From assembly GCA_964496475.1 (NCBI GenBank), contig CAZBZS010000001.1:36512-100511 (forward strand): a stretch of 64,000 nt of DNA, in the 5' to 3' direction. The position numbers were made by a program, and so were the translations under genes. Each line of letters starts with the position of its first letter. Positions within the stretch are counted from its first letter, which is position 1. Shown piece after piece: positions 32,684-47,518 of the stretch. The notes below the pieces were generated by a model. That model worked only from the letters and a program-made list of their open reading frames with translations, searched no databases and was not told where the DNA came from. The DNA comes from an uncultured Chloroflexota bacterium (GTDB lineage Bacteria > Chloroflexota > UBA11872 > VXNJ01).

Positions 32684-33310
32684 CTAGCCGTCATCGAGTT
32701 CGTCCGCGAGCGCGGCCAGGCAGAACTCGCGAAACGCACGAAAGCGACTGCCGGGCCGCATCTCGGGCTCGCACGCTTCCATCGCGGTCAGGGCTTCGTC
32801 GCCGGCGGTGAGCAAAAGACGGACTTTGAACAGGGCGTAGGCGTATTCCGGGTGTTTATCGCGGAGATAGGCGAAGATCGAGCCGGACGTGCGCTCGAAA
32901 CGGGCCGCGACCCCGGGATCGCGCACCAGGCGTTCGACCTCGCGCAGAGGGCGGGTCCAGCCTCGGCCGAGGCGATAATCAACCCGGTCCAGCAGCAGGC
33001 CGTATTCCCCGAGAATCGGGCGTATCCGTGAAGCCAATTCGTCGAAGGTCAGCGTCTTCACGTCGGTTTGCGGCCGGCCGATCTCCTCCGCCAGACCTTC
33101 CCAGTCCACCGCCACCCCCGGGTATAGCGCCTCGAATTCCAGCTTCAGCTGGCTGGTGACCAGCGGATTGGGTCCCATGTAGGCCAAGAAACGCATGCCC
33201 ACTTCATCGCCATCATCTGGCTCTTCCACCACCCACGCGACTCGGATGGTGCGCACAGAGCCATTTGGCAGCCTGCGTTCTTCCGTGCGCCAGCGCAGGT
33301 GTACCGACAC
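32684..33310 (-). CDS. Hypothetical protein (208 aa)
   Basis: Intact ORF with protein-like composition and no motif I can name confidently. Sits where rpmI-rplT would normally follow infC. Confidence 0.5.
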   Translation of the reverse strand: MSVHLRWRTEERRLPNGSVRTIRVAWVVEEPDDGDEVGMRFLAYMGPNPLVTSQLKLEFEALYPGVAVDWEGLAEEIGRPQTDVKTLTFDELASRIRPILGEYGLLLDRVDYRLGRGWTRPLREVERLVRDPGVAARFERTSGSIFAYLRDKHPEYAYALFKVRLLLTAGDEALTAMEACEPEMRPGSRFRAFREFCLAALADELDDG

Positions 33311-33378: not shown

Positions 33379-33951
33379 TCAGGCCTGCTTGTCGCCCGTG
33401 GCGCCCGGTCCGGGGACGAGAATCACCGCGAACGAGAAGTTCCCCTCCTGCACGATCGGCCGCTCCACTACCGCCAGATCGGCCAGGCGCTCGACCACGG
33501 TGTTGAGGAGCTGCGCCGCCAGTTCCGGGTAAATTCGCTCGCGTCCTCGCATCCGCACCGTCGCCTTGACCTTGGCTCCCGACCTCAGAAACTTGGCCAT
33601 GCGGTTCACTTTGGTTTTGATGTCATGCTCTTCCGTGCGCGGACGGAAGCGCACTTCCTTCACGTCGCCGGCGCGCTGGTGCTTGCGGCCTTCACGCTCT
33701 TTCCGATTCTGCTCGTACTTGAACTTCCCGTAGTCCATGAGCTTGGCAACTGGCGGTCTCTGGTTTGGCGACACCTCCACCAAATCATATCCGCGCTGGC
33801 GGGCCAGACGCATCGCCTCCTCTGTGTCTATCACCCCCAGCGACGTGTTCGTTTCGTCAACCAGCAGAACCTGCCTGATGTGAATACGCTCGTTAATGCG
33901 GAGTTCCCGAGAATCCCTGCTTATTGCTCCACTCCCCGATAATCGCGACAT
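33379..33951 (-). CDS. infC: Translation initiation factor IF-3
   Basis: RINERIHIRQVLLVDETNTSLGVIDTEEAMRLARQRGYDLVEVSPNQRPPVAKLMDYGKFKYEQ is the canonical IF-3 N- and C-domain. The true start may be a non-canonical codon. Confidence 0.95.
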   Translation of the reverse strand: MSRLSGSGAISRDSRELRINERIHIRQVLLVDETNTSLGVIDTEEAMRLARQRGYDLVEVSPNQRPPVAKLMDYGKFKYEQNRKEREGRKHQRAGDVKEVRFRPRTEEHDIKTKVNRMAKFLRSGAKVKATVRMRGRERIYPELAAQLLNTVVERLADLAVVERPIVQEGNFSFAVILVPGPGATGDKQA

Positions 33952-34149: not shown

Positions 34150-36603
34150 ATGGCCGCCGTCCGTCAACTATTTCAGTACCGTAGGGGCCCGCATTTGGAA
34201 GTCGCCCAGGCCAGCCTAGCGGACGGCCTTCCCCGATCCAGCAGCGCACGGGTTAGCATAGAATCGCGCCCTCCCGACCGCGATGACATCGGCAGTCTAT
34301 TTCTGCTCCTTGAGGGTGGAACCGAGCGTCTGTGCAGAGCCTTCGCCAACGTGGCCGTGCGGGCCTATTTCTCCCAGGAAACCGGGAGTCCGATCTCCGG
34401 ACTCATGCGCAGCATGAGAGTCGGATCGAGCGCCGTGGCCAGGGAAGCCAGCCCGGAAGAAGAGCATCTGGATATCGGGGCCACCGGGCTGGTCGTTCGC
34501 GGCGACGAGCTCTACATCGCCCAACTTCTCCCCTCCCAGGTCTACATTTTCCGCGATGACGAACTTAACGCCCTCCCGGAGAAGTCCGCCGTGTCGCCTT
34601 CCGAACCGGGGGGACTGCCGTTCAATAAGGACATAGAGCTTTTTCAGGCCACGCTGGAGCTGGGCGACACCATCGCGGTCACCTCCTCGGTAATCGCCCG
34701 CGCCGTTCGCCACCGGGAAATCCGGGGGCTAATCGCCCTCTACGACGCGATCACTTGCGTCAATCAGCTGGGGGCGCTGGCCGCGCAGCGCGGCGTGGTC
34801 GAAGGCGACATTCTCCTTCTCCGGTCGGTCGCCGCCGAGGAAACTGTCGGGGCAACCGAGCCAGCCCTGGAGCAGCCCTCCCTCGAGGCAACGCGACCGG
34901 CAACGCATTCGGAATATCCCGTCCCCGCTCCGCCGGCAACCCGTCCGGGCCGTGAGCCCGATTGGTCGTCCGCCACTCTGGAAACCACCATGACCGCCCA
35001 TGATCACTCTCGGAAGTCGGCCAGGCGGGCAATCCTCGACGTGGTCATCTCGATCCCGCTTCTGGTCATTTTCCTTCCTGCGATGGCCATCCGAGGATTG
35101 TTCCGGTTGCTCAGAGGCGATCCGACTCGACAAGATCCTAGGGCAGGCGGGAGATCATCACCCCCGCCCCAGACCGAGTACGAGCGGCGGCGCGCGGCGA
35201 TAGCCGCTGGGCCGGTGGATCTGGAAGATTTAAACCGCCAATTACTGAATCCATCGGGAGACGCAATTCCACGTTCGTGGCCCGACGCGCCGGTGAGCCG
35301 GAACGGGGGATTGTTCGGCGGAATTTGGCGAATTGCACGCGGCAACGACGATCCGCTAATGCGCGGTCACCGGCGCGGCGGCGGCCTCGGGGCCGGGTCG
35401 CTAATCCTGCTGTTCTCCATCGTTGTAGTCATAGCGATGTTCATCGTGCTCTTCATCCGGCGGGAGGAAGCGCCTGCCGATGCTTTGCCGGCTCAAACCA
35501 GCAGCGGTGAAACCCCGGAACTGGTAGCGCCAGAGGCCTCGGCCAACGCCGATGCCGATGCCGCCGACTCCTTCGCGCGGGCAAAATCGTTCTACGACGC
35601 GGCGTTGAAGGAAGGAGACGACTCCCAGGCCAAGGAGGCCCTTCAGGACGCGTCCAACGCCGCGAACCGGGCCGGAAGCCTGGGCTACACGATCAGCGAA
35701 GTGAATCGCCTGCTGGCGCAGATCGACGATGAACGCGATTTACGCAACAAGGTAACCCGGGTCGCCACCAGCGCCACCATCACCGAGTTCGGGGAATCCG
35801 GGGCCGGACATGCGCTTGAACAGATCGAGGTCTACCAGGACCGGCAGTACGTGATCGACGCCGTAAACGGGCAGGTCATGGAATTTACCGACCCCAAGCG
35901 CGGCCAGACGGTCCTGCGTATCGGTGAGCAGATCGGCCAGGTGGGTGTGGCCGACATAATCGCCGTGATCTCCCGAGATTTGAGCCTGTTGGTGATAGAC
36001 AGCGACTTCAACGTGTTCAGCATCGTGCCCGACCAGCGACCGCAGCAACTGCGCATCCTGGGCACCGATCAGTGGAGAGACCCCGTGGCCTTCGACAACT
36101 TCCAGAACAATTTCTACGTTCTGGACCGCATCGCCAACCGCATCCACAAATACATCCCCACGCCCGGCGGCTACGAAGTGGAGCCAAGCGACTTCTTCGA
36201 TCCGGCTGAAGAGGTCGACATCAGCACCGCGAGGGACATGGCGATCGACGGGGACATCTACATCCTGCTCGAAGACAACAGGATCCTGAAGTACCGCGCC
36301 GGCCAGCAGATGCGATTTCAGCTCGTTGGCCTGGACCGGCCGATCCAGCTGGCCTCCCGGATATTCACCAGCCAGGAGTCGGATTCTCTTTTCATCGTGG
36401 ACGAGGAAAACCGGCGCATCATCGAAGTGGACATCCGCGACGGGAACGAGGGGGTGTTCCTGCGGCAGTTCCTGTTCCGGGGAGCCGACGATTTTTTCGC
36501 CGACATCAGGGGCATCTGGGTCCGCCAGTCGGACGGCCGCCTGCTGGTGCTGGGAGCAAACTCACTGCGCCAGTTCGTCCTGCCGAAGCTCCCGGACCAG
36601 TAG
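34150..36603 (+). CDS. Large membrane protein: N-terminal degenerate PP2C-like domain, 2 TM helices, C-terminal NHL-like beta-propeller
   Basis: 817 aa. Residues ~40-260 align loosely with a PP2C fold (LFLLLEGG vs DGMGG, GATGLVVRGDELYIAQ vs GTTLxxxxxLxxAHVGDS, LELGDTIAVTSS vs GDxLLLCSDG) but most catalytic Asp residues are replaced. TM helices at about 300-325 and 405-430. The C-terminal 350 aa carry repeated hhhDxxNxRIxxY/h motifs (FYVLDRIANRIHKY, IYILLEDNRILKY, LFIVDEENRRIIEVD) typical of NHL/six-bladed propellers. Confidence 0.6.
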   Translation: MAAVRQLFQYRRGPHLEVAQASLADGLPRSSSARVSIESRPPDRDDIGSLFLLLEGGTERLCRAFANVAVRAYFSQETGSPISGLMRSMRVGSSAVAREASPEEEHLDIGATGLVVRGDELYIAQLLPSQVYIFRDDELNALPEKSAVSPSEPGGLPFNKDIELFQATLELGDTIAVTSSVIARAVRHREIRGLIALYDAITCVNQLGALAAQRGVVEGDILLLRSVAAEETVGATEPALEQPSLEATRPATHSEYPVPAPPATRPGREPDWSSATLETTMTAHDHSRKSARRAILDVVISIPLLVIFLPAMAIRGLFRLLRGDPTRQDPRAGGRSSPPPQTEYERRRAAIAAGPVDLEDLNRQLLNPSGDAIPRSWPDAPVSRNGGLFGGIWRIARGNDDPLMRGHRRGGGLGAGSLILLFSIVVVIAMFIVLFIRREEAPADALPAQTSSGETPELVAPEASANADADAADSFARAKSFYDAALKEGDDSQAKEALQDASNAANRAGSLGYTISEVNRLLAQIDDERDLRNKVTRVATSATITEFGESGAGHALEQIEVYQDRQYVIDAVNGQVMEFTDPKRGQTVLRIGEQIGQVGVADIIAVISRDLSLLVIDSDFNVFSIVPDQRPQQLRILGTDQWRDPVAFDNFQNNFYVLDRIANRIHKYIPTPGGYEVEPSDFFDPAEEVDISTARDMAIDGDIYILLEDNRILKYRAGQQMRFQLVGLDRPIQLASRIFTSQESDSLFIVDEENRRIIEVDIRDGNEGVFLRQFLFRGADDFFADIRGIWVRQSDGRLLVLGANSLRQFVLPKLPDQ

Positions 36604-36676: not shown

Positions 36677-36749
36677 GGAGCGGGTAGCGGGAATCGAACC
36701 CGCATTTCAACCTTGGGAAGGTCGCGTTCTGCCACTGAACCATACCCGC
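36677..36749 (-). tRNA. tRNA-Gly (anticodon CCC)
   Basis: Minus-strand GCGGGTATGGTTCAGTGGCAGAACGCGACCTTCCCAAGGTTGAAATGCGGGTTCGATTCCCGCTACCCGCTCC. Anticodon loop TTCCCAA, T-arm GCGGGTTCGATTCCCGC, 7-bp acceptor stem. Confidence 0.85.
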
Positions 36750-36879: not shown

Positions 36880-37827
36880 ATGACGGACAGTAAGTCGATC
36901 GCCGAATCGGTGATCGATAACGTCGAGCGCGTCATAGTTGGCAAGCGGGAGGCCGTCGAGAAGGTGTTGATCGCCATGGTCTCCCACGGCCATGTCCTCA
37001 TCGAAGATGTTCCCGGTGTCGGCAAAACCACCATGGCCAAGGCGTTCGCCCAGTCCATCGGCTGCGATTTCCGGCGTATTCAGTTCACCCCGGACCTGCT
37101 GCCCAGCGATATTGCCGGCGTCTCGATTTACAACCAGAAAACCGCCGAATTTGAATTCCGTCCCGGCCCGATCATGGCGCAAATAGTGCTGGCCGACGAG
37201 ATCAACCGCGCCACTCCGAAAAGCCAGTCCGCGTTGTTGGAGGCGATGGACGAGCACCAGGTCACGATCGATGGAATCACCCACAAGATGGCCGAACCGT
37301 TCCTGGTGCTGGCCACGCAAAATCCAATCGAGTACGAGGGCACCTTTCCCCTGCCCGAATCCCAGCTTGATCGGTTCTTCATGCGAATCACCCTCGGCTA
37401 CGCCGGGCGCGACCATGAACTCGAGATAATCGATTCCCAGCTCCTCGCCCACCCGATTGACAGCATCGAACAGGTCGTTGATGTCGTCGATCTCATCCAG
37501 CTGCAAGAGCAGGTCAAGAGTGTGTACGTGGACCAGCGGGTGCGCGAATACATTGTCGACGTCGTGCGCTCCACACGCGAGCACTCCGACATTTACCTGG
37601 GCGCCAGCACCCGCGCCAGCCTGGCCCTCTTCCGCGGATCACAGGCCAGCGCCAGTTTTCGCGGCCGCGACTATGTGGTCCCCGACGACGTTAAGGCTCT
37701 GGCCGGCGATGTCCTGGCCCACCGCCTGATCGTGAGTCCTGCCGCCCGAATCCGCAATCTGGACACACGGGACACTGTCGGCGAGATCCTGGACTCGATG
37801 CCAGTCCCGGGCGCCACCGCCGCATGA
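36880..37827 (+). CDS. MoxR-family AAA+ ATPase
   Basis: Walker [11 protein letters not shown], Walker [10 protein letters not shown], and the MoxR-typical C-terminal helical domain. 315 aa. Confidence 0.95.
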
Positions 37828-38407: not shown

Positions 38408-38743
38408 CTACTCGGCCCCGTTCCCACCGGCCCGACGCTGCGAGCGGTGCTCGTCGATATGTTCGTCCGAATAGAAGCCGGTTTCTTCACCTCGAAATAC
38501 CGTTACATAAAATTCTTCCCGGCTGGTCTCCGCCGAAATCACCAGCTGCTCGTCAATTTCGCAGACCAGATCAAGCACATCGCTTTCAGCGAAATCTTCA
38601 ACCATCATCAACGTTGCGTATGACGACTCGGCTCCATAATGAAGGTCCAGCCTTCCGATCGGCTTTCCATCCAGTCGCACCAGGAAGCCCTCGGAACTTG
38701 AAGTTCGATACTGTCGCAGGAAATTCACATTGGCCGTATTCAA
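38408..38743 (-). CDS. Hypothetical acidic protein (111 aa)
   Basis: Intact ORF with lower GC than its neighbours and no recognisable motif. Lies at the distal end of the nadB-nadC operon. Confidence 0.45.
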   Translation of the reverse strand: MNTANVNFLRQYRTSSSEGFLVRLDGKPIGRLDLHYGAESSYATLMMVEDFAESDVLDLVCEIDEQLVISAETSREEFYVTVFRGEETGFYSDEHIDEHRSQRRAGGNGAE

Positions 38744-43669: not shown

Positions 43670-44647
<978 letters not shown>

Positions 44648-44706
44648 TGGATTAGGAAGCCTCCGCTTGGCAGCCGTCTCGGTCTTCAATTGGACGGGCG
44701 AGGCCC

Positions 44707-45945
44707 GTGGCTAGCCTGTTCGCGGTCGGAGGGCTGCTCCTGGTGACCGCCTTTCTTACCGGCATCGGCGTGTTCTACCTGCTCTTCTACCTTGTGCTGG
44801 GAATCCATCTGCTGGGCTGGTTTTGGATTCGCACGATTCGCCGCGGTTTATCTGTCGAGCGCAACCTTCTGGACCGGGTGTTCATCGGCGAGACGATTCC
44901 GGTCACGGTAAGGGTTCACAACCGGTCGCTGCTACCGGTTCCGTGGATCAGCCTCTGGGAATCGCTGCCCCGCGAACTCTCCAGCCAGGGCGTATTGAAA
45001 CGGGTCACTTCGCTGGCGCCGCGATCCGAGACCGCCGTGGAATACGAGCTGACGGCCCGCCGTCGCGGGTACTACCCGGTGGGCCCGATCGACCTGCAAT
45101 ACGGGGATGTTTTCGGATTTCGCCAGGAGTATCTTTGGCACGAGGAGCCGACCATGGTCATCGTGTACCCCACGGTCGTTCCCATCTCCCGCCTAGGATT
45201 GCCCTCCACAACCCCGCTGGGCACCGAAAAATCGTCGCGCATCCTCTACCAGGACCCTTCCCGGGTGATTGGCGCCCGCGAGTATCAGCCCTCCGACAGC
45301 CCCCGCATGATCAACTGGAAGGTCTCGGCCGCGCGGGGAGAGCTGTTCGTCAGGCAGGTCGAACCGGCGGTGAGCCACGAGGTGTTGATCCTGCTGGATC
45401 TTAGTCCGGCCGGCTACTCGCAGCGATGGATCAATTATTCCAGCGAACTGTCGGTCACCGTCGCGGCCTCATTCGCCGCCCATCTGATCGAAAAACGCCA
45501 GTCCGTTGGCCTCGCCGTCAACGGTATCGACCAGGTCGCCACGGGCGGGCAGATGCTTTCCCCGGCGCTGGTGGACCTATTTCGGGCGGAGCGCTCGCCC
45601 TTCGTGGCCGTGGGAAGGGGCAGGCGCCACCTGATGCTGATCCTGGAACTGCTGGCGCGGGTGGGCCTGTTGACCGGAGCCGACATGCAACGTCTGCTGC
45701 ACCACGAGGCCGCCCGGTTGCCCTGGGGATCAACCCTGGTGGTAGTTACAGGTAAATCCGATCCCACCCTGTTGGCCACCCTGCAGGGCCGCCGGCGAGC
45801 CGGACACAACGTGCTGGCCGTTTTCACCGATACCGACGAGTCCCGAAACTCGGTCGCCGCCGCCCGCGCCGCCGGAATCGCCGCCCGCTCGATCACCGAT
45901 AGAGAGCAAATAGATGTCGCGCCCGGTATCGCCACAGTCTCGTAG
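44707..45945 (+). CDS. DUF58 domain protein (VWA-like MoxR partner)
   Basis: N-terminal 2-TM segment then a DUF58 core (ARRRGYYPVGPIDLQYGDVFGF...REYQPSDSPRMINWKVSAARGELFVRQ). Confidence 0.9.
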   Translation: MASLFAVGGLLLVTAFLTGIGVFYLLFYLVLGIHLLGWFWIRTIRRGLSVERNLLDRVFIGETIPVTVRVHNRSLLPVPWISLWESLPRELSSQGVLKRVTSLAPRSETAVEYELTARRRGYYPVGPIDLQYGDVFGFRQEYLWHEEPTMVIVYPTVVPISRLGLPSTTPLGTEKSSRILYQDPSRVIGAREYQPSDSPRMINWKVSAARGELFVRQVEPAVSHEVLILLDLSPAGYSQRWINYSSELSVTVAASFAAHLIEKRQSVGLAVNGIDQVATGGQMLSPALVDLFRAERSPFVAVGRGRRHLMLILELLARVGLLTGADMQRLLHHEAARLPWGSTLVVVTGKSDPTLLATLQGRRRAGHNVLAVFTDTDESRNSVAAARAAGIAARSITDREQIDVAPGIATVS

Positions 45946-47518
45946 CCGACTTACCCTCTTTCTGATCGTTACCTTCGGCTATGCCCTGGTCGCACTCGGC
46001 GTGGTATTTCTGAGTCACCAGTTCGGCCTTCCCGCCATGCGCTCAGCAGCCAGTTTCGCGGCCCTCGTTTCCAGCTTCGCAATCCGCACCTACCTGGGTT
46101 GCGTGCGGCCAAAGCGCCCATCTGACCAGATTTCCTGGCGAGACTGGTTCGTTTTCGCCCTCCCGGCCATCCTGATCGTGCGACTCACCGGTATCGTCGA
46201 CGAAGGCACCGCCGAGGAGTACGAAAACTGGTATTCCTCCCTGCACGTGATCATTCTGGACATGCCGACCTTCATCCTTCTCCTCCTCATGATCGGCACC
46301 TGGATGACCGGCGCTCTGGTCGCCGAGCAGGTTGACGCCCTTCATCCCCGCTCAATCGACGCCCGCGCTTCAGATCGATCAGATCTCGATGGGGATGCCT
46401 CAACCGGATTGGAACGCCAGAACCGGGCCGTGGCCATGATGTGGCTGGACCGCGTCGGAGCCGGCGGTGCGGGCATTCTTATCGTCTTTTCCGGCATCCT
46501 TGTTGCCGCTCCGCCATACGTCGGGGTACCGGCCGCTATCCCGGCCGGTATCGTGCTTGTCGCCCTGTTGTTCTATTTTGTAACAATTTTGTTACTGCAT
46601 AGTTACGCCAGCTTCGTTCGTCGCCAAACCAACTGGGATTTGGACCACGCTCCGCAATCACCCGGTATCGCCTCCAACTGGCTGCGTTCCACGACGTTGA
46701 TCCTTGGAGTGGGCCTCCTTCTCGTCGCCTTTCTCCCCAGATTCCCCGCGCCCGACCTGAGCGACGGAGTCAGGCCATTTGTCATCATTGGCCAGGTCGT
46801 GCTCGGAATCCTTATATTGCCTTTTGTCGCTTTTGCGTACTTATTGAAACTTTTCTTCTCATTATTCCGAGGGGACGGAGAGGGCAGCGAAACTCCGATC
46901 GCGCCCAGACCGACCGTGCCTCTTACGTCGGGAAGCGAAAGCGACTGGTTGCCGTTCTTCCAATCGGCCGCCCTCTGGTTCGTGCTGGCGCTCATGATGT
47001 ATTTGATCATTCGTCGCCTCCGCAACCGGCGGGCGCCGGTGCCGGTGCTGGAGCCGGTCCTCGTGGCGCTGGCCGCGATTTTCCTCCTACCGGGACTGCT
47101 GCTCGCCGCGATCCGCGGCTTCCTCAGTCTGGCCGGAGAGGCCGTGGTGGAGGCCGCCGGTGCCACCCGCGCCGGGTTATCCCGCCTGCGCCGACCGCTC
47201 GTCTCCCGTGGAAAAGCCGTCGAGCCCGAGCCGCTTACCAATCGAGACCGGGTCTGGCGTAGCTATCGGGCCGTTCTCCAGGCCGCCGCCGCCGCCGGCC
47301 ACGAGCGCCTTCCCGATCAGACCGCCGACGAATTCCGCTATGCTCTCGAACCGCATCTCGGGGAGACCCGCCTCAGTCTCCGTGCCATCACCGGCATTTT
47401 CGTCCGGGCCCGCTACTCAAACGCCGCGGTCGGCCATGACGGCGTCCAGCGCGCCCGCGACAGCGGCGACCGGGTCGTGCGATCTCTGCAACAATCGGAC
47501 CATGCAGGATCTGTTTGA
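45914..47518 (+). CDS. Polytopic membrane protein with C-terminal DUF4129-like domain
   Basis: About 9 TM helices, then a cytoplasmic tail ...TADEFRYALEPHLGETRLSLRAITGIFVRARYSN that resembles DUF4129, the third component of MoxR/DUF58 operons. Confidence 0.65.
   Translation: MSRPVSPQSRSRLTLFLIVTFGYALVALGVVFLSHQFGLPAMRSAASFAALVSSFAIRTYLGCVRPKRPSDQISWRDWFVFALPAILIVRLTGIVDEGTAEEYENWYSSLHVIILDMPTFILLLLMIGTWMTGALVAEQVDALHPRSIDARASDRSDLDGDASTGLERQNRAVAMMWLDRVGAGGAGILIVFSGILVAAPPYVGVPAAIPAGIVLVALLFYFVTILLLHSYASFVRRQTNWDLDHAPQSPGIASNWLRSTTLILGVGLLLVAFLPRFPAPDLSDGVRPFVIIGQVVLGILILPFVAFAYLLKLFFSLFRGDGEGSETPIAPRPTVPLTSGSESDWLPFFQSAALWFVLALMMYLIIRRLRNRRAPVPVLEPVLVALAAIFLLPGLLLAAIRGFLSLAGEAVVEAAGATRAGLSRLRRPLVSRGKAVEPEPLTNRDRVWRSYRAVLQAAAAAGHERLPDQTADEFRYALEPHLGETRLSLRAITGIFVRARYSNAAVGHDGVQRARDSGDRVVRSLQQSDHAGSV

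What the first reader, a model, noticed from the sequence alone, without database searches (positions are those of the whole stretch)
34150..36603. 817-aa receptor-like protein: degenerate PP2C-like domain, two TM helices, NHL-like beta-propeller
This is a stand-alone gene between infC and tRNA-Gly. The N-terminal about 260 aa follow the PP2C phosphatase fold order, but the metal-binding aspartates of the DGMGG, GDS and SDG motifs are mostly substituted (LLLEGG, LLPSQ, TSSV). This suggests a pseudo-phosphatase or a scaffolding module. Two TM helices separate it from an approximately 350-aa domain with at least four repeats of the NHL/beta-propeller signature (hydrophobic-Y/F-V/L-L/V-D-x-x-N-x-R-I-x-x-Y). 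Ser/Thr kinases (PknD-type) with extracellular NHL propellers are known. A membrane-spanning PP2C-like (possibly inactive) partner with an NHL sensor is not an architecture I recognise as described, and could represent a new transmembrane signalling module.
Basis: inference. Interest (0 to 1): 0.7.

Follow-up and report, generated by a model that had tools for sequence, protein, structure and literature searches.

The report
Membrane-anchored dead PP2C with NHL propeller
This gene from a marine Chloroflexota bacterium encodes a membrane protein with an apparently inactive PP2C phosphatase domain inside the cell and a six-bladed NHL propeller probably outside; it belongs to a large uncharacterised family seen so far only in Chloroflexota and looks like a receptor or scaffold, not an enzyme.

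The parts
34183..34187 (+). Shine-Dalgarno-like AGGGG, 7 nt upstream of the likely TTG start
   Evidence: This is read directly from the sequence. AGGGG/AGAGG followed by TTG is conserved in L001, L003 and L007; the more distant L009 also starts at TTG, after GGAAGG.
34195..36603 (+). Most likely coding sequence (802 aa plus stop). The longer ORF from ATG 34150 is probably not used.
   Evidence: The 100%-identical P0001 and nearly all relatives are 799-803 aa and start at residue 16. The upstream ATG is absent from L001.
34195..34833 (+). Cytoplasmic PP2C/PPM-fold domain (residues 16-228) with a degenerate metal site: Arg29, Ser32-Ala33-Arg34, Glu55, Pro128, Ser180 and Glu218
   Evidence: The AF2 pLDDT is about 80. 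Foldseek gives PstP at E 2.7e-11, plus tPphA and SpoIIE. The family profile hits tPphA at E 2.9e-22 and PstP at 2e-14.
34834..35028 (+). Disordered Pro/Ala/Glu-rich linker (residues 229-293)
   Evidence: The pLDDT is below 35 and conservation is poor.
35029..35091 (+). Hydrophobic segment 1 (residues 294-314, AILDVVISIPLLVIFLPAMAI). It is clade-specific and contains prolines; it may be a re-entrant or kinked helix.
   Evidence: The mean hydropathy is about 2.45. The segment is present in P0001-16, P0174 and P0177 but absent from the sister clade P0019/P0187/P0191/P0195.
35092..35388 (+). Basic loop (residues 315-413) holding the conserved motif TEYERRRAAIAAGP..DLE.LNRQ (342-365) and SWPDAP/GLFGGIW
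   Evidence: The segment 317-413 has a net charge of +5. Motif conservation is shown.
35389..35457 (+). Hydrophobic segment 2 (residues 414-436), the single membrane anchor shared by the whole family
   Evidence: The hydropathy peak is 3.46. Most of the full-length relatives listed have one such segment just before the C-domain.
35458..35541 (+). Acidic Ser/Thr/Pro/Ala-rich stalk (residues 437-464)
   Evidence: The segment 438-464 has a net charge of -5 and low pLDDT.
35542..35745 (+). Three-helix unit (residues 465-532) preceding the propeller
   Evidence: In the AF2 C-domain model (pLDDT 96.3) the helices are model residues 2-27, 31-50 and 55-72, which correspond to protein residues 462-532.
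35752..36600 (+). Six-bladed NHL-type beta-propeller (residues 535-817). The repeat motifs lie at 566-579, 613-625, 655-668, 703-715, 747-760 and 798-811.

Best explanation
The gene encodes a receptor-like membrane pseudophosphatase.

Shown:
- The N-terminal domain is a true PP2C/PPM homologue. Its binuclear metal site has been dismantled in the same specific way across the whole family.
- A hydrophobic anchor follows the N-terminal domain.
- The C-terminal part is a three-helix unit plus a six-bladed NHL-type propeller.

Inferred:
- The N-domain is cytoplasmic, because there is no signal peptide.
- The universal anchor (residues 414-436) crosses the membrane once, N-in/C-out.
- The helical unit and the propeller are therefore extracytoplasmic.
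- The extra hydrophobic segment (294-314) in this clade dips into or lies on the membrane without changing this topology.

Proposed mechanism, by analogy only: the propeller binds an envelope or external ligand. The state of the protein (oligomerisation or conformation) is passed through the anchor to the dead PP2C domain. That domain then works as a binding or scaffold module rather than as a hydrolase, for example by holding a phospho-Ser/Thr protein or a kinase. The non-catalytic PP2C domains of RssB and TAB1 act in this way.
For: PP2C homology:
- The profile of 31 N-domains hits tPphA at E 2.9e-22, PstP at 2e-14, PppA at 7.6e-14 and Stp1 at about 1e-10.
- Foldseek with the AF2 model gives PstP at E 2.7e-11.

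Loss of the catalytic site across the family, counted over 126 representatives:
- The motif II Asp is Glu in 85, Asp in 17 and Gln in 11.
- The GDS Asp is Pro in 108.
- The SDG Asp is Ser, Thr or Gly; Asp occurs in only 2.
- Motif I NED reads SAR in the query.
- The replacements are themselves conserved, which argues for selection on a new role and not for decay.

Propeller:
- The AF2 pLDDT is 96.3.

Topology:
- Most relatives have a single TM immediately before the C-domain.
- TM1 is absent from the syntenic sister clade.
- The loop before TM2 is basic (net +5) and the stalk after it is acidic (net -5).
- Short relatives consist only of a signal-anchor plus the helical unit and the propeller.

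Constraint and spread:
- Relatives from other MAGs are 70-88% identical.
- There are 1157 clusters at E<=1e-10.
- All named members are from Chloroflexota.

Precedent: RssB and TAB1 are described as pseudo-PP2Cs that act as adaptors (PMC5468089). PHLPP2 is described as a PPM pseudophosphatase (PMC12002173, abstract).
Against: - No biochemical data exist, and inactivity is inferred from sequence alone.
- Two acidic positions of the metal site are partly retained: Glu55 at motif II and Glu218 at motif XI (D/E/N in about 70% of relatives). Arg29 sits at the phosphate-binding Arg position. Residual metal or phosphate binding, or even weak activity, is therefore not excluded.
- No kinase, FHA protein or other conserved partner is adjacent in any context examined, and none was found among the 10 larger ORFs of the window that I scanned. 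A signalling role thus has no genomic support.
- Topology was not run through a dedicated predictor. If both hydrophobic segments span the membrane, the two domains lie on the same side.
- The full-length AF2 model is poor outside the two domains (pLDDT 58).
Confidence: 0.55

Rival explanations
1. The protein is an envelope assembly or anchoring factor, not a signal transducer. The extracytoplasmic propeller acts as a scaffold or chaperone for cell-wall or surface components, as the propeller proteins BamB and Ycf48 do. The dead PP2C domain is only a cytoplasmic docking or oligomerisation module.
For: - The gene sits among housekeeping genes (infC, aspS, tsaD, PCMT, groES/EL) with no signalling partner nearby.
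- One relative is followed by an M23 peptidase, and two relatives have glycosyltransferases among their neighbours.
- BamB and Ycf48 appear among the Foldseek propeller hits.
- There is one copy per locus, and the family looks like core genes of the phylum.
Against: - The best structural matches are NHL domains and the PknD sensor, not BamB (an 8-bladed propeller with TM scores of only about 0.39).
- The envelope-related neighbours are not conserved between relatives.
- A domain that only anchors would not need a conserved, specifically remodelled PP2C active-site region.
Confidence: 0.25
2. The N-domain is still an active but atypical phosphatase or hydrolase. It would use a remodelled site built from Glu55, Glu218 and other residues, so the protein would be a PstP-like receptor phosphatase.
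For: - Acidic residues persist at two of the four metal-ligand positions, and Arg29 occupies the phosphate-binding Arg position.
- JGI's automatic annotation calls one member 'PrpC'.
- Eight of 31 relatives give weak Pfam SpoIIE or PP2C hits.
Against: - The SDG Asp is absent from 124 of 126 sequences.
- The GDS Asp is Pro in 108 of 126.
- The Gly-rich DGxGG loop is lost in most relatives.
- The motif I acid is not conserved.
- From established knowledge of PPM enzymes, single substitutions of these ligands abolish activity.
- The motif II residue itself varies (E, D, Q, N, K, T, H), which is not expected for a catalytic ligand.
Confidence: 0.12
3. In this clade the two hydrophobic segments form a transmembrane hairpin. 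Both the PP2C-like domain and the propeller would then be cytoplasmic, and the protein would be a membrane-tethered intracellular scaffold rather than a receptor.
For: There are two strongly hydrophobic segments of 21-23 residues, with means of 2.45 and 3.46. AF2 draws both as long helices.
Against: - This would require a short extracytoplasmic loop, but the intervening 97-residue loop is basic (net +5) and conserved, as cytoplasmic loops usually are.
- The sister clade and most relatives have only the second segment.
- Short relatives carry the C-domain directly behind an N-terminal signal-anchor.
- Moving a conserved domain to the other compartment within one orthologous, syntenic lineage is unlikely.
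Confidence: 0.08

Closest known systems
PstP (Rv0018c) of Mycobacterium tuberculosis, a membrane-anchored PPM phosphatase
   Same: Both have an N-terminal cytoplasmic PP2C-fold domain, one membrane anchor and a C-terminal extracytoplasmic domain. PstP is the best Foldseek hit (E 2.7e-11) and a strong profile hit (2e-14).
   Different: PstP has all the metal-binding aspartates and is an active phosphatase. From established knowledge, its extracellular part is not a propeller and it lies in an operon with pknA/pknB, FHA proteins and cell-wall genes. Here the ligands are replaced, the outer domain is an NHL propeller and no such operon exists.
PknD of M. tuberculosis, a receptor Ser/Thr kinase with an extracellular NHL propeller
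   Different: The cytoplasmic module is a Hanks kinase in PknD and a degenerate PP2C here. Sequence identity in the propeller is only 15%. This protein also has an extra three-helix unit before the propeller.
RssB (E. coli), TAB1 and PHLPP2, non-catalytic PP2C/PPM domains
   Same: All have a PP2C fold with a degenerate or unused active site that serves as a protein-binding or adaptor module (PMC5468089; PMC12002173).
   Different: Those proteins are soluble, with receiver, kinase-binding or LRR/PH partner domains. None is membrane-anchored with an NHL propeller. RssB did not appear among the sequence hits.
tPphA (Thermosynechococcus) and SpoIIE-family bacterial PP2Cs
   Same: These are the closest sequence relatives of the N-domain: tPphA at E 2.9e-22, aligned over about 190 profile positions with all core motifs in register. 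SpoIIE is a Foldseek hit and gives weak Pfam matches in 8 of 31 relatives.
   Different: They are active enzymes with intact DGxGG, GDS, SDG and DN motifs. The query gives no Pfam PP2C, PP2C_2 or SpoIIE hit at all.

Membership tests
PPM/PP2C phosphatase superfamily | PP2C alpha-beta-beta-alpha fold with detectable sequence homology | tested here: met
   The family profile hits tPphA at E 2.9e-22 and PstP at 2e-14. Foldseek gives PstP at E 2.7e-11 with TM 0.55-0.62 relative to the targets.
PPM/PP2C phosphatase superfamily | A match to a curated model (Pfam PF00481 PP2C, PF13672 PP2C_2 or PF07228 SpoIIE) above threshold | tested here: not met
   The query gives no hit even at E<=10. Among 31 relatives, 8 give weak SpoIIE hits (best E 1.3e-5), 4 PP2C (best 1.7e-6) and 2 PP2C_2.
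PPM/PP2C phosphatase superfamily (as an active enzyme) | Conserved metal-binding aspartates in motif I (ED), motif II (DGxGG), motif VIII (SDG) and motif XI (DN), plus the GDS Asp | tested here: not met
   The query has SAR, Glu55, Ser180, Glu218 and Pro128 at these positions. Across 126 sequences the SDG position is Asp in 2, the GDS position is Pro in 108, and motif II is Glu in 85.
PPM/PP2C phosphatase superfamily (as an active enzyme) | Mn2+/Mg2+-dependent phospho-Ser/Thr hydrolysis | not testable with these tools
   This needs an enzyme assay on purified residues 16-228.
NHL-repeat beta-propeller | A six-bladed propeller whose closest structural neighbours are NHL domains | tested here: met
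NHL-repeat beta-propeller | A match to the Pfam NHL repeat model PF01436 | tested here: not met
   The query gives no hit at E<=10. Relatives give only sub-threshold hits to other six-blade propeller models, DUF5128 and SGL.
NHL-repeat beta-propeller | A repeated sequence motif, one copy per blade | tested here: met
   Six copies of hydrophobic-x-[VIL]-[VIL]-D/G..N.R/x-I..Y/F occur about 46 residues apart, starting at residues 566, 613, 655, 703, 747 and 798.
PstP-like receptor phosphatase architecture | Cytoplasmic PP2C domain, single TM, extracytoplasmic C-terminal domain | tested here: inconclusive
   The domain order is met and most relatives have one TM. The query has two hydrophobic segments, and the N-in/C-out topology is inferred from charge bias and from clade comparison only.
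PknD-type receptor Ser/Thr kinase | A Hanks-type kinase domain | tested here: not met
   There is no Pkinase hit. The cytoplasmic domain is PP2C-like.
Pseudo-PP2C adaptors (RssB/TAB1 type) | A non-catalytic PP2C domain that binds a partner protein | not testable with these tools
   The degenerate site is shown. Partner binding would need pull-down or two-hybrid experiments.

The most novel reading that the evidence does not exclude
This is the founding member, so far undescribed, of a transmembrane signalling family found so far only in Chloroflexota. An extracellular NHL propeller would control a catalytically dead PP2C domain that reads, sequesters or scaffolds phospho-Ser/Thr proteins or kinases. 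It would be a 'receptor pseudophosphatase', the phosphatase-side counterpart of receptor pseudokinases, conserved as a single-copy core gene across a whole bacterial phylum.
Probability: 0.3. Interest if true: 0.7.

Novelty: new variant of a known kind. Interest (0 to 1): 0.5.

Why it matters
Bacterial pseudoenzymes in Ser/Thr signalling are little explored. The known dead PP2Cs (RssB, TAB1, PHLPP) are soluble. A membrane-spanning, sensor-coupled dead PP2C conserved in more than 1000 sequence clusters, all so far from one phylum, would be different in three ways.

- It would show that pseudophosphatases can be the cytoplasmic output of surface receptors.
- It would provide a lineage marker for Chloroflexota, including the abundant marine groups.
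- It would offer a tractable case for asking what a PP2C fold does once its metals are gone, because the replacements (Glu, Pro, Ser) are themselves conserved.

The family also fills an annotation gap. It has no Pfam or NCBIfam model and is called 'hypothetical protein' in the databases.

Tried and rejected
Searches that found nothing or failed:
- Pfam, NCBIfam and PDB-sequence searches with the single protein found nothing useful. Only a family profile exposed the PP2C homology.
- The full-length AF2 model from 11 close sequences was poor for the C-half (pLDDT 58). It was replaced by a C-domain model built from 41 diverse sequences (pLDDT 96.3).
- The AFDB50 fold library was unavailable, so I could not list UniProt or cultured-organism members.
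- The word-index search with the N-domain profile returned no hit. Whether this dead PP2C domain occurs with other C-terminal domains is therefore unknown.
- Five literature searches found no paper on this family: three aimed at PP2C + NHL + Chloroflexi or at bacterial pseudophosphatases, and two that retrieved background on RssB and PknD.

Checks that came back negative:
- I found no paralogue in the window or in 16 related loci.
- I found no conserved operon partner.
- The promoter and terminator scan around the gene gave nothing above chance.

Readings I rejected:
- The ATG at 34150 as the start codon.
- 'Two TM helices separate the domains' as the basis for a receptor, because two passes would put both domains on one side of the membrane.
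- A PknD-like kinase partner encoded nearby.
Full report

The ORF 34150..36603 (+) exists and is 817 codons long. It is coding: GC is 45% at codon position 2 and 76% at position 3. A 100%-identical protein and 12 further close relatives (46-88% identity) are on record.

Nearly all of those relatives are 799-803 aa and begin at residue 16 of the ORF. The DNA shows why:
- The codon at 34195 is TTG, preceded by AGGGG 7 nt upstream, and this arrangement is conserved in L001, L003 and L007.
- The more distant L009 also begins at a TTG, after GGAAGG.
- The ATG at 34150 is not conserved; L001 has AAG at that position.

The protein is therefore most likely 802 aa, encoded by 34195..36603. I keep the 817-aa numbering below.

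infC lies at 33379..33951 on the minus strand and is divergent. tRNA-Gly(CCC) lies at 36677..36749 on the minus strand and is convergent. The same order recurs in related contigs: ABC transporters, aspS, a 208-aa ORF, infC, this gene, tRNA-Gly, MoxR, ogt, nadC, nadB. The organism is an uncultured marine Chloroflexota bacterium.

**2. The N-terminal domain**

The single sequence hits nothing in Pfam, NCBIfam or PDB sequences.

The AF2 model of residues 16-228 has pLDDT of about 80. Foldseek matches it to bacterial PP2C phosphatases: PstP at E 2.7e-11, followed by tPphA, SpoIIE, Stp1 and PppA.

A profile built from 31 diverse N-domains (A3) hits PDB sequences with these E-values:
- tPphA: 2.9e-22
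- PstP: 2e-14
- PppA: 7.6e-14
- Stp1: about 1e-10

This establishes homology, not just similarity of fold.

The printed alignment puts the PP2C core motifs in register. Family 'lveglg' aligns with tPphA 'VADGMGG', 'aqvgPa' with 'AHVGDS', 'vlasse' with 'LLCSDG', and 'ggedlsaLvv' with 'GGRDNVTVVV'.

I counted residues at these columns over 126 representatives, 16 from the query's clade and 110 from elsewhere:

| PP2C position | Residues found in the family | Query |
|---|---|---|
| Motif II Asp (DGxGG) | Glu in 85, Asp in 17, Gln in 11 | Glu55 |
| GDS Asp | Pro in 108 | Pro128 |
| SDG Asp | Ser, Thr or Gly; Asp in only 2 | Ser180 |
| Motif XI acid | Asp, Glu or Asn in about 70% | Glu218 |
| Motif I (NED) | not conserved | Ser32-Ala33-Arg34 |
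| Phosphate-binding Arg (Gly+3) | Arg in 10 of 16 own-clade and 22 of 110 other sequences | Arg29 |

The degeneracy is a property of the family, and the replacements are themselves conserved. From established knowledge of PPM enzymes, loss of these ligands abolishes catalysis. The domain is very probably a pseudophosphatase. This is an inference from sequence and has not been measured.

**3. The membrane region**

There are two hydrophobic segments. The first spans residues 294-314 with a mean hydropathy of about 2.45 and contains two prolines. The second spans residues 414-436 with a peak of 3.46.

Two real membrane passes would put both domains on the same side, which would undercut the receptor idea. 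Four observations argue for one effective pass, N-in/C-out:
- Most of the full-length relatives listed have only one segment, immediately before the C-domain.
- In an alignment of the middle region, the first segment is present in the query clade (P0001-16, P0174, P0177). It is absent from the syntenic sister clade (P0019, P0187, P0191, P0195). The second segment aligns throughout.
- The 97-residue loop between the segments is basic (net +5) and carries a conserved motif, TEYERRRAAIAAGP..DLE.LNRQ. The stalk after the second segment is acidic (net -5).
- Several short relatives (P0036, P0051, P0148) consist of an N-terminal signal-anchor followed directly by the helical unit and the propeller.

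The most economical reading is that the first segment is a re-entrant or interfacial helix. This is an inference; no dedicated topology predictor was available.

**4. The C-terminal domain**

I modelled residues 461-817 with 41 diverse sequences. The model has pLDDT 96.3 and pTM 0.92. It shows three helices (residues 462-532) followed by 24-25 strands arranged as six four-stranded blades.

- Foldseek gives the Brat NHL domain at E 6.9e-11 with TM 0.73, then NHL-2.
- Six copies of the NHL-like motif start at residues 566, 613, 655, 703, 747 and 798.
- Pfam's NHL model does not match the query. Relatives give only sub-threshold hits to other six-blade models.

**5. The family**

An exhaustive HMMER scan of 1.84 billion cluster representatives gave the following counts:
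- 3813 proteins at E<=1e-3
- 1157 at E<=1e-10
- 45 at E<=1e-30

Most of the best 150 are 650-850 aa and match in two stretches, and 126 of the 162 proteins held at that point carry the N-domain. Every member for which a source gives a name is from Chloroflexota or Anaerolineae. All are called 'hypothetical protein', apart from one automatic JGI label, 'PrpC'.

There is one copy per locus, with no paralogue in the window or in 16 related loci.

Gene context is not conserved beyond the query clade and its sister. The neighbours are infC/aspS, PCMT and tsaD, PCMT and an M23 peptidase, thioredoxin and HNH, a glycosyltransferase, or CBS and M20. No kinase, FHA protein or active PP2C is adjacent. 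The 10 larger ORFs of the window that I scanned are housekeeping genes such as uvrC, glmU-like, der and nnr.

**6. Mechanism**

What is shown is the architecture: dead PP2C, anchor, helical unit, NHL propeller. What is inferred is the N-in/C-out topology and the lack of catalysis.

The mechanism I propose rests on analogy. PstP has the same layout and PknD the same sensor. RssB and TAB1 are PP2C folds used as adaptors without catalysis (PMC5468089), and PHLPP2 is a PPM pseudophosphatase (PMC12002173). On that basis, an extracytoplasmic ligand-binding propeller would be coupled to a cytoplasmic binding or scaffold domain.

The rivals are:
- an envelope assembly or anchoring factor with no signalling role (0.25);
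- an atypical but active phosphatase (0.12);
- a hairpin topology with both domains in the cytoplasm (0.08).

**7. Novelty and verdict**

Every component is a known kind, and membrane-anchored PP2Cs and NHL-sensor kinases are both known. The combination is what appears new: a specifically remodelled, catalytically degenerate PP2C domain joined to this sensor, and spread across many Chloroflexota lineages. I found no curated model and no paper describing it, within the limits of those searches.

I class it as a new variant of a known kind and score interest at 0.5. It is a solid, well-defined uncharacterised family worth an experimental look. No function has been demonstrated, and it bears on no long-standing open question.

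Noticed in passing
window 32684..33310 (-): A 208-aa ORF lies between aspS and infC. It has no Pfam hit but is conserved in the same position in relatives: L001 and L003 (208 aa), L009 (206 aa) and L015 (213 aa). It is another uncharacterised gene conserved in this lineage.
   Followed up: partly
window 38408..38743 (-): A 111-aa ORF lies between ogt and nadC. No Pfam hit is on record for its counterparts, which are syntenic in L001 and L003.
   Followed up: no
window 36880..37827 (+) and 43670..47518 (+): There are two MoxR-type AAA+ ATPase genes. The second is followed by a 412-aa ORF, whose counterpart in L003 has a DUF58 domain, and by a DUF4129 protein at 45914..47518. This is the usual MoxR-DUF58 cluster.
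   Followed up: partly
window 34150 versus 34195: The ATG that opens the 817-codon ORF is not conserved; L001 has AAG there. The likely start is the TTG at 34195, with an AGGGG Shine-Dalgarno 7 nt upstream.
   Followed up: yes
relatives P0036, P0051 and P0148 (380-400 aa): These short family members have only an N-terminal signal-anchor, the helical unit and the propeller, with no PP2C-like domain. They may be real stand-alone forms or split or truncated gene calls.
   Followed up: partly
L014 6574..9222 (+): An 882-aa gene with no Pfam hit lies directly downstream of the family member P0039. It is not a paralogue of the family.
   Followed up: partly
window residues 342-392 of the protein (nt 35173..35325): A highly conserved cytoplasmic-loop motif, TEYERRRAAIAAGP.DLEDLNRQ ... 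SWPDAP ... GLFGGIW, is found in the closest two-segment relatives down to 46% identity (P0011-P0013, P0177) but not in P0014-P0016 or P0174. Its role is unknown.
   Followed up: no
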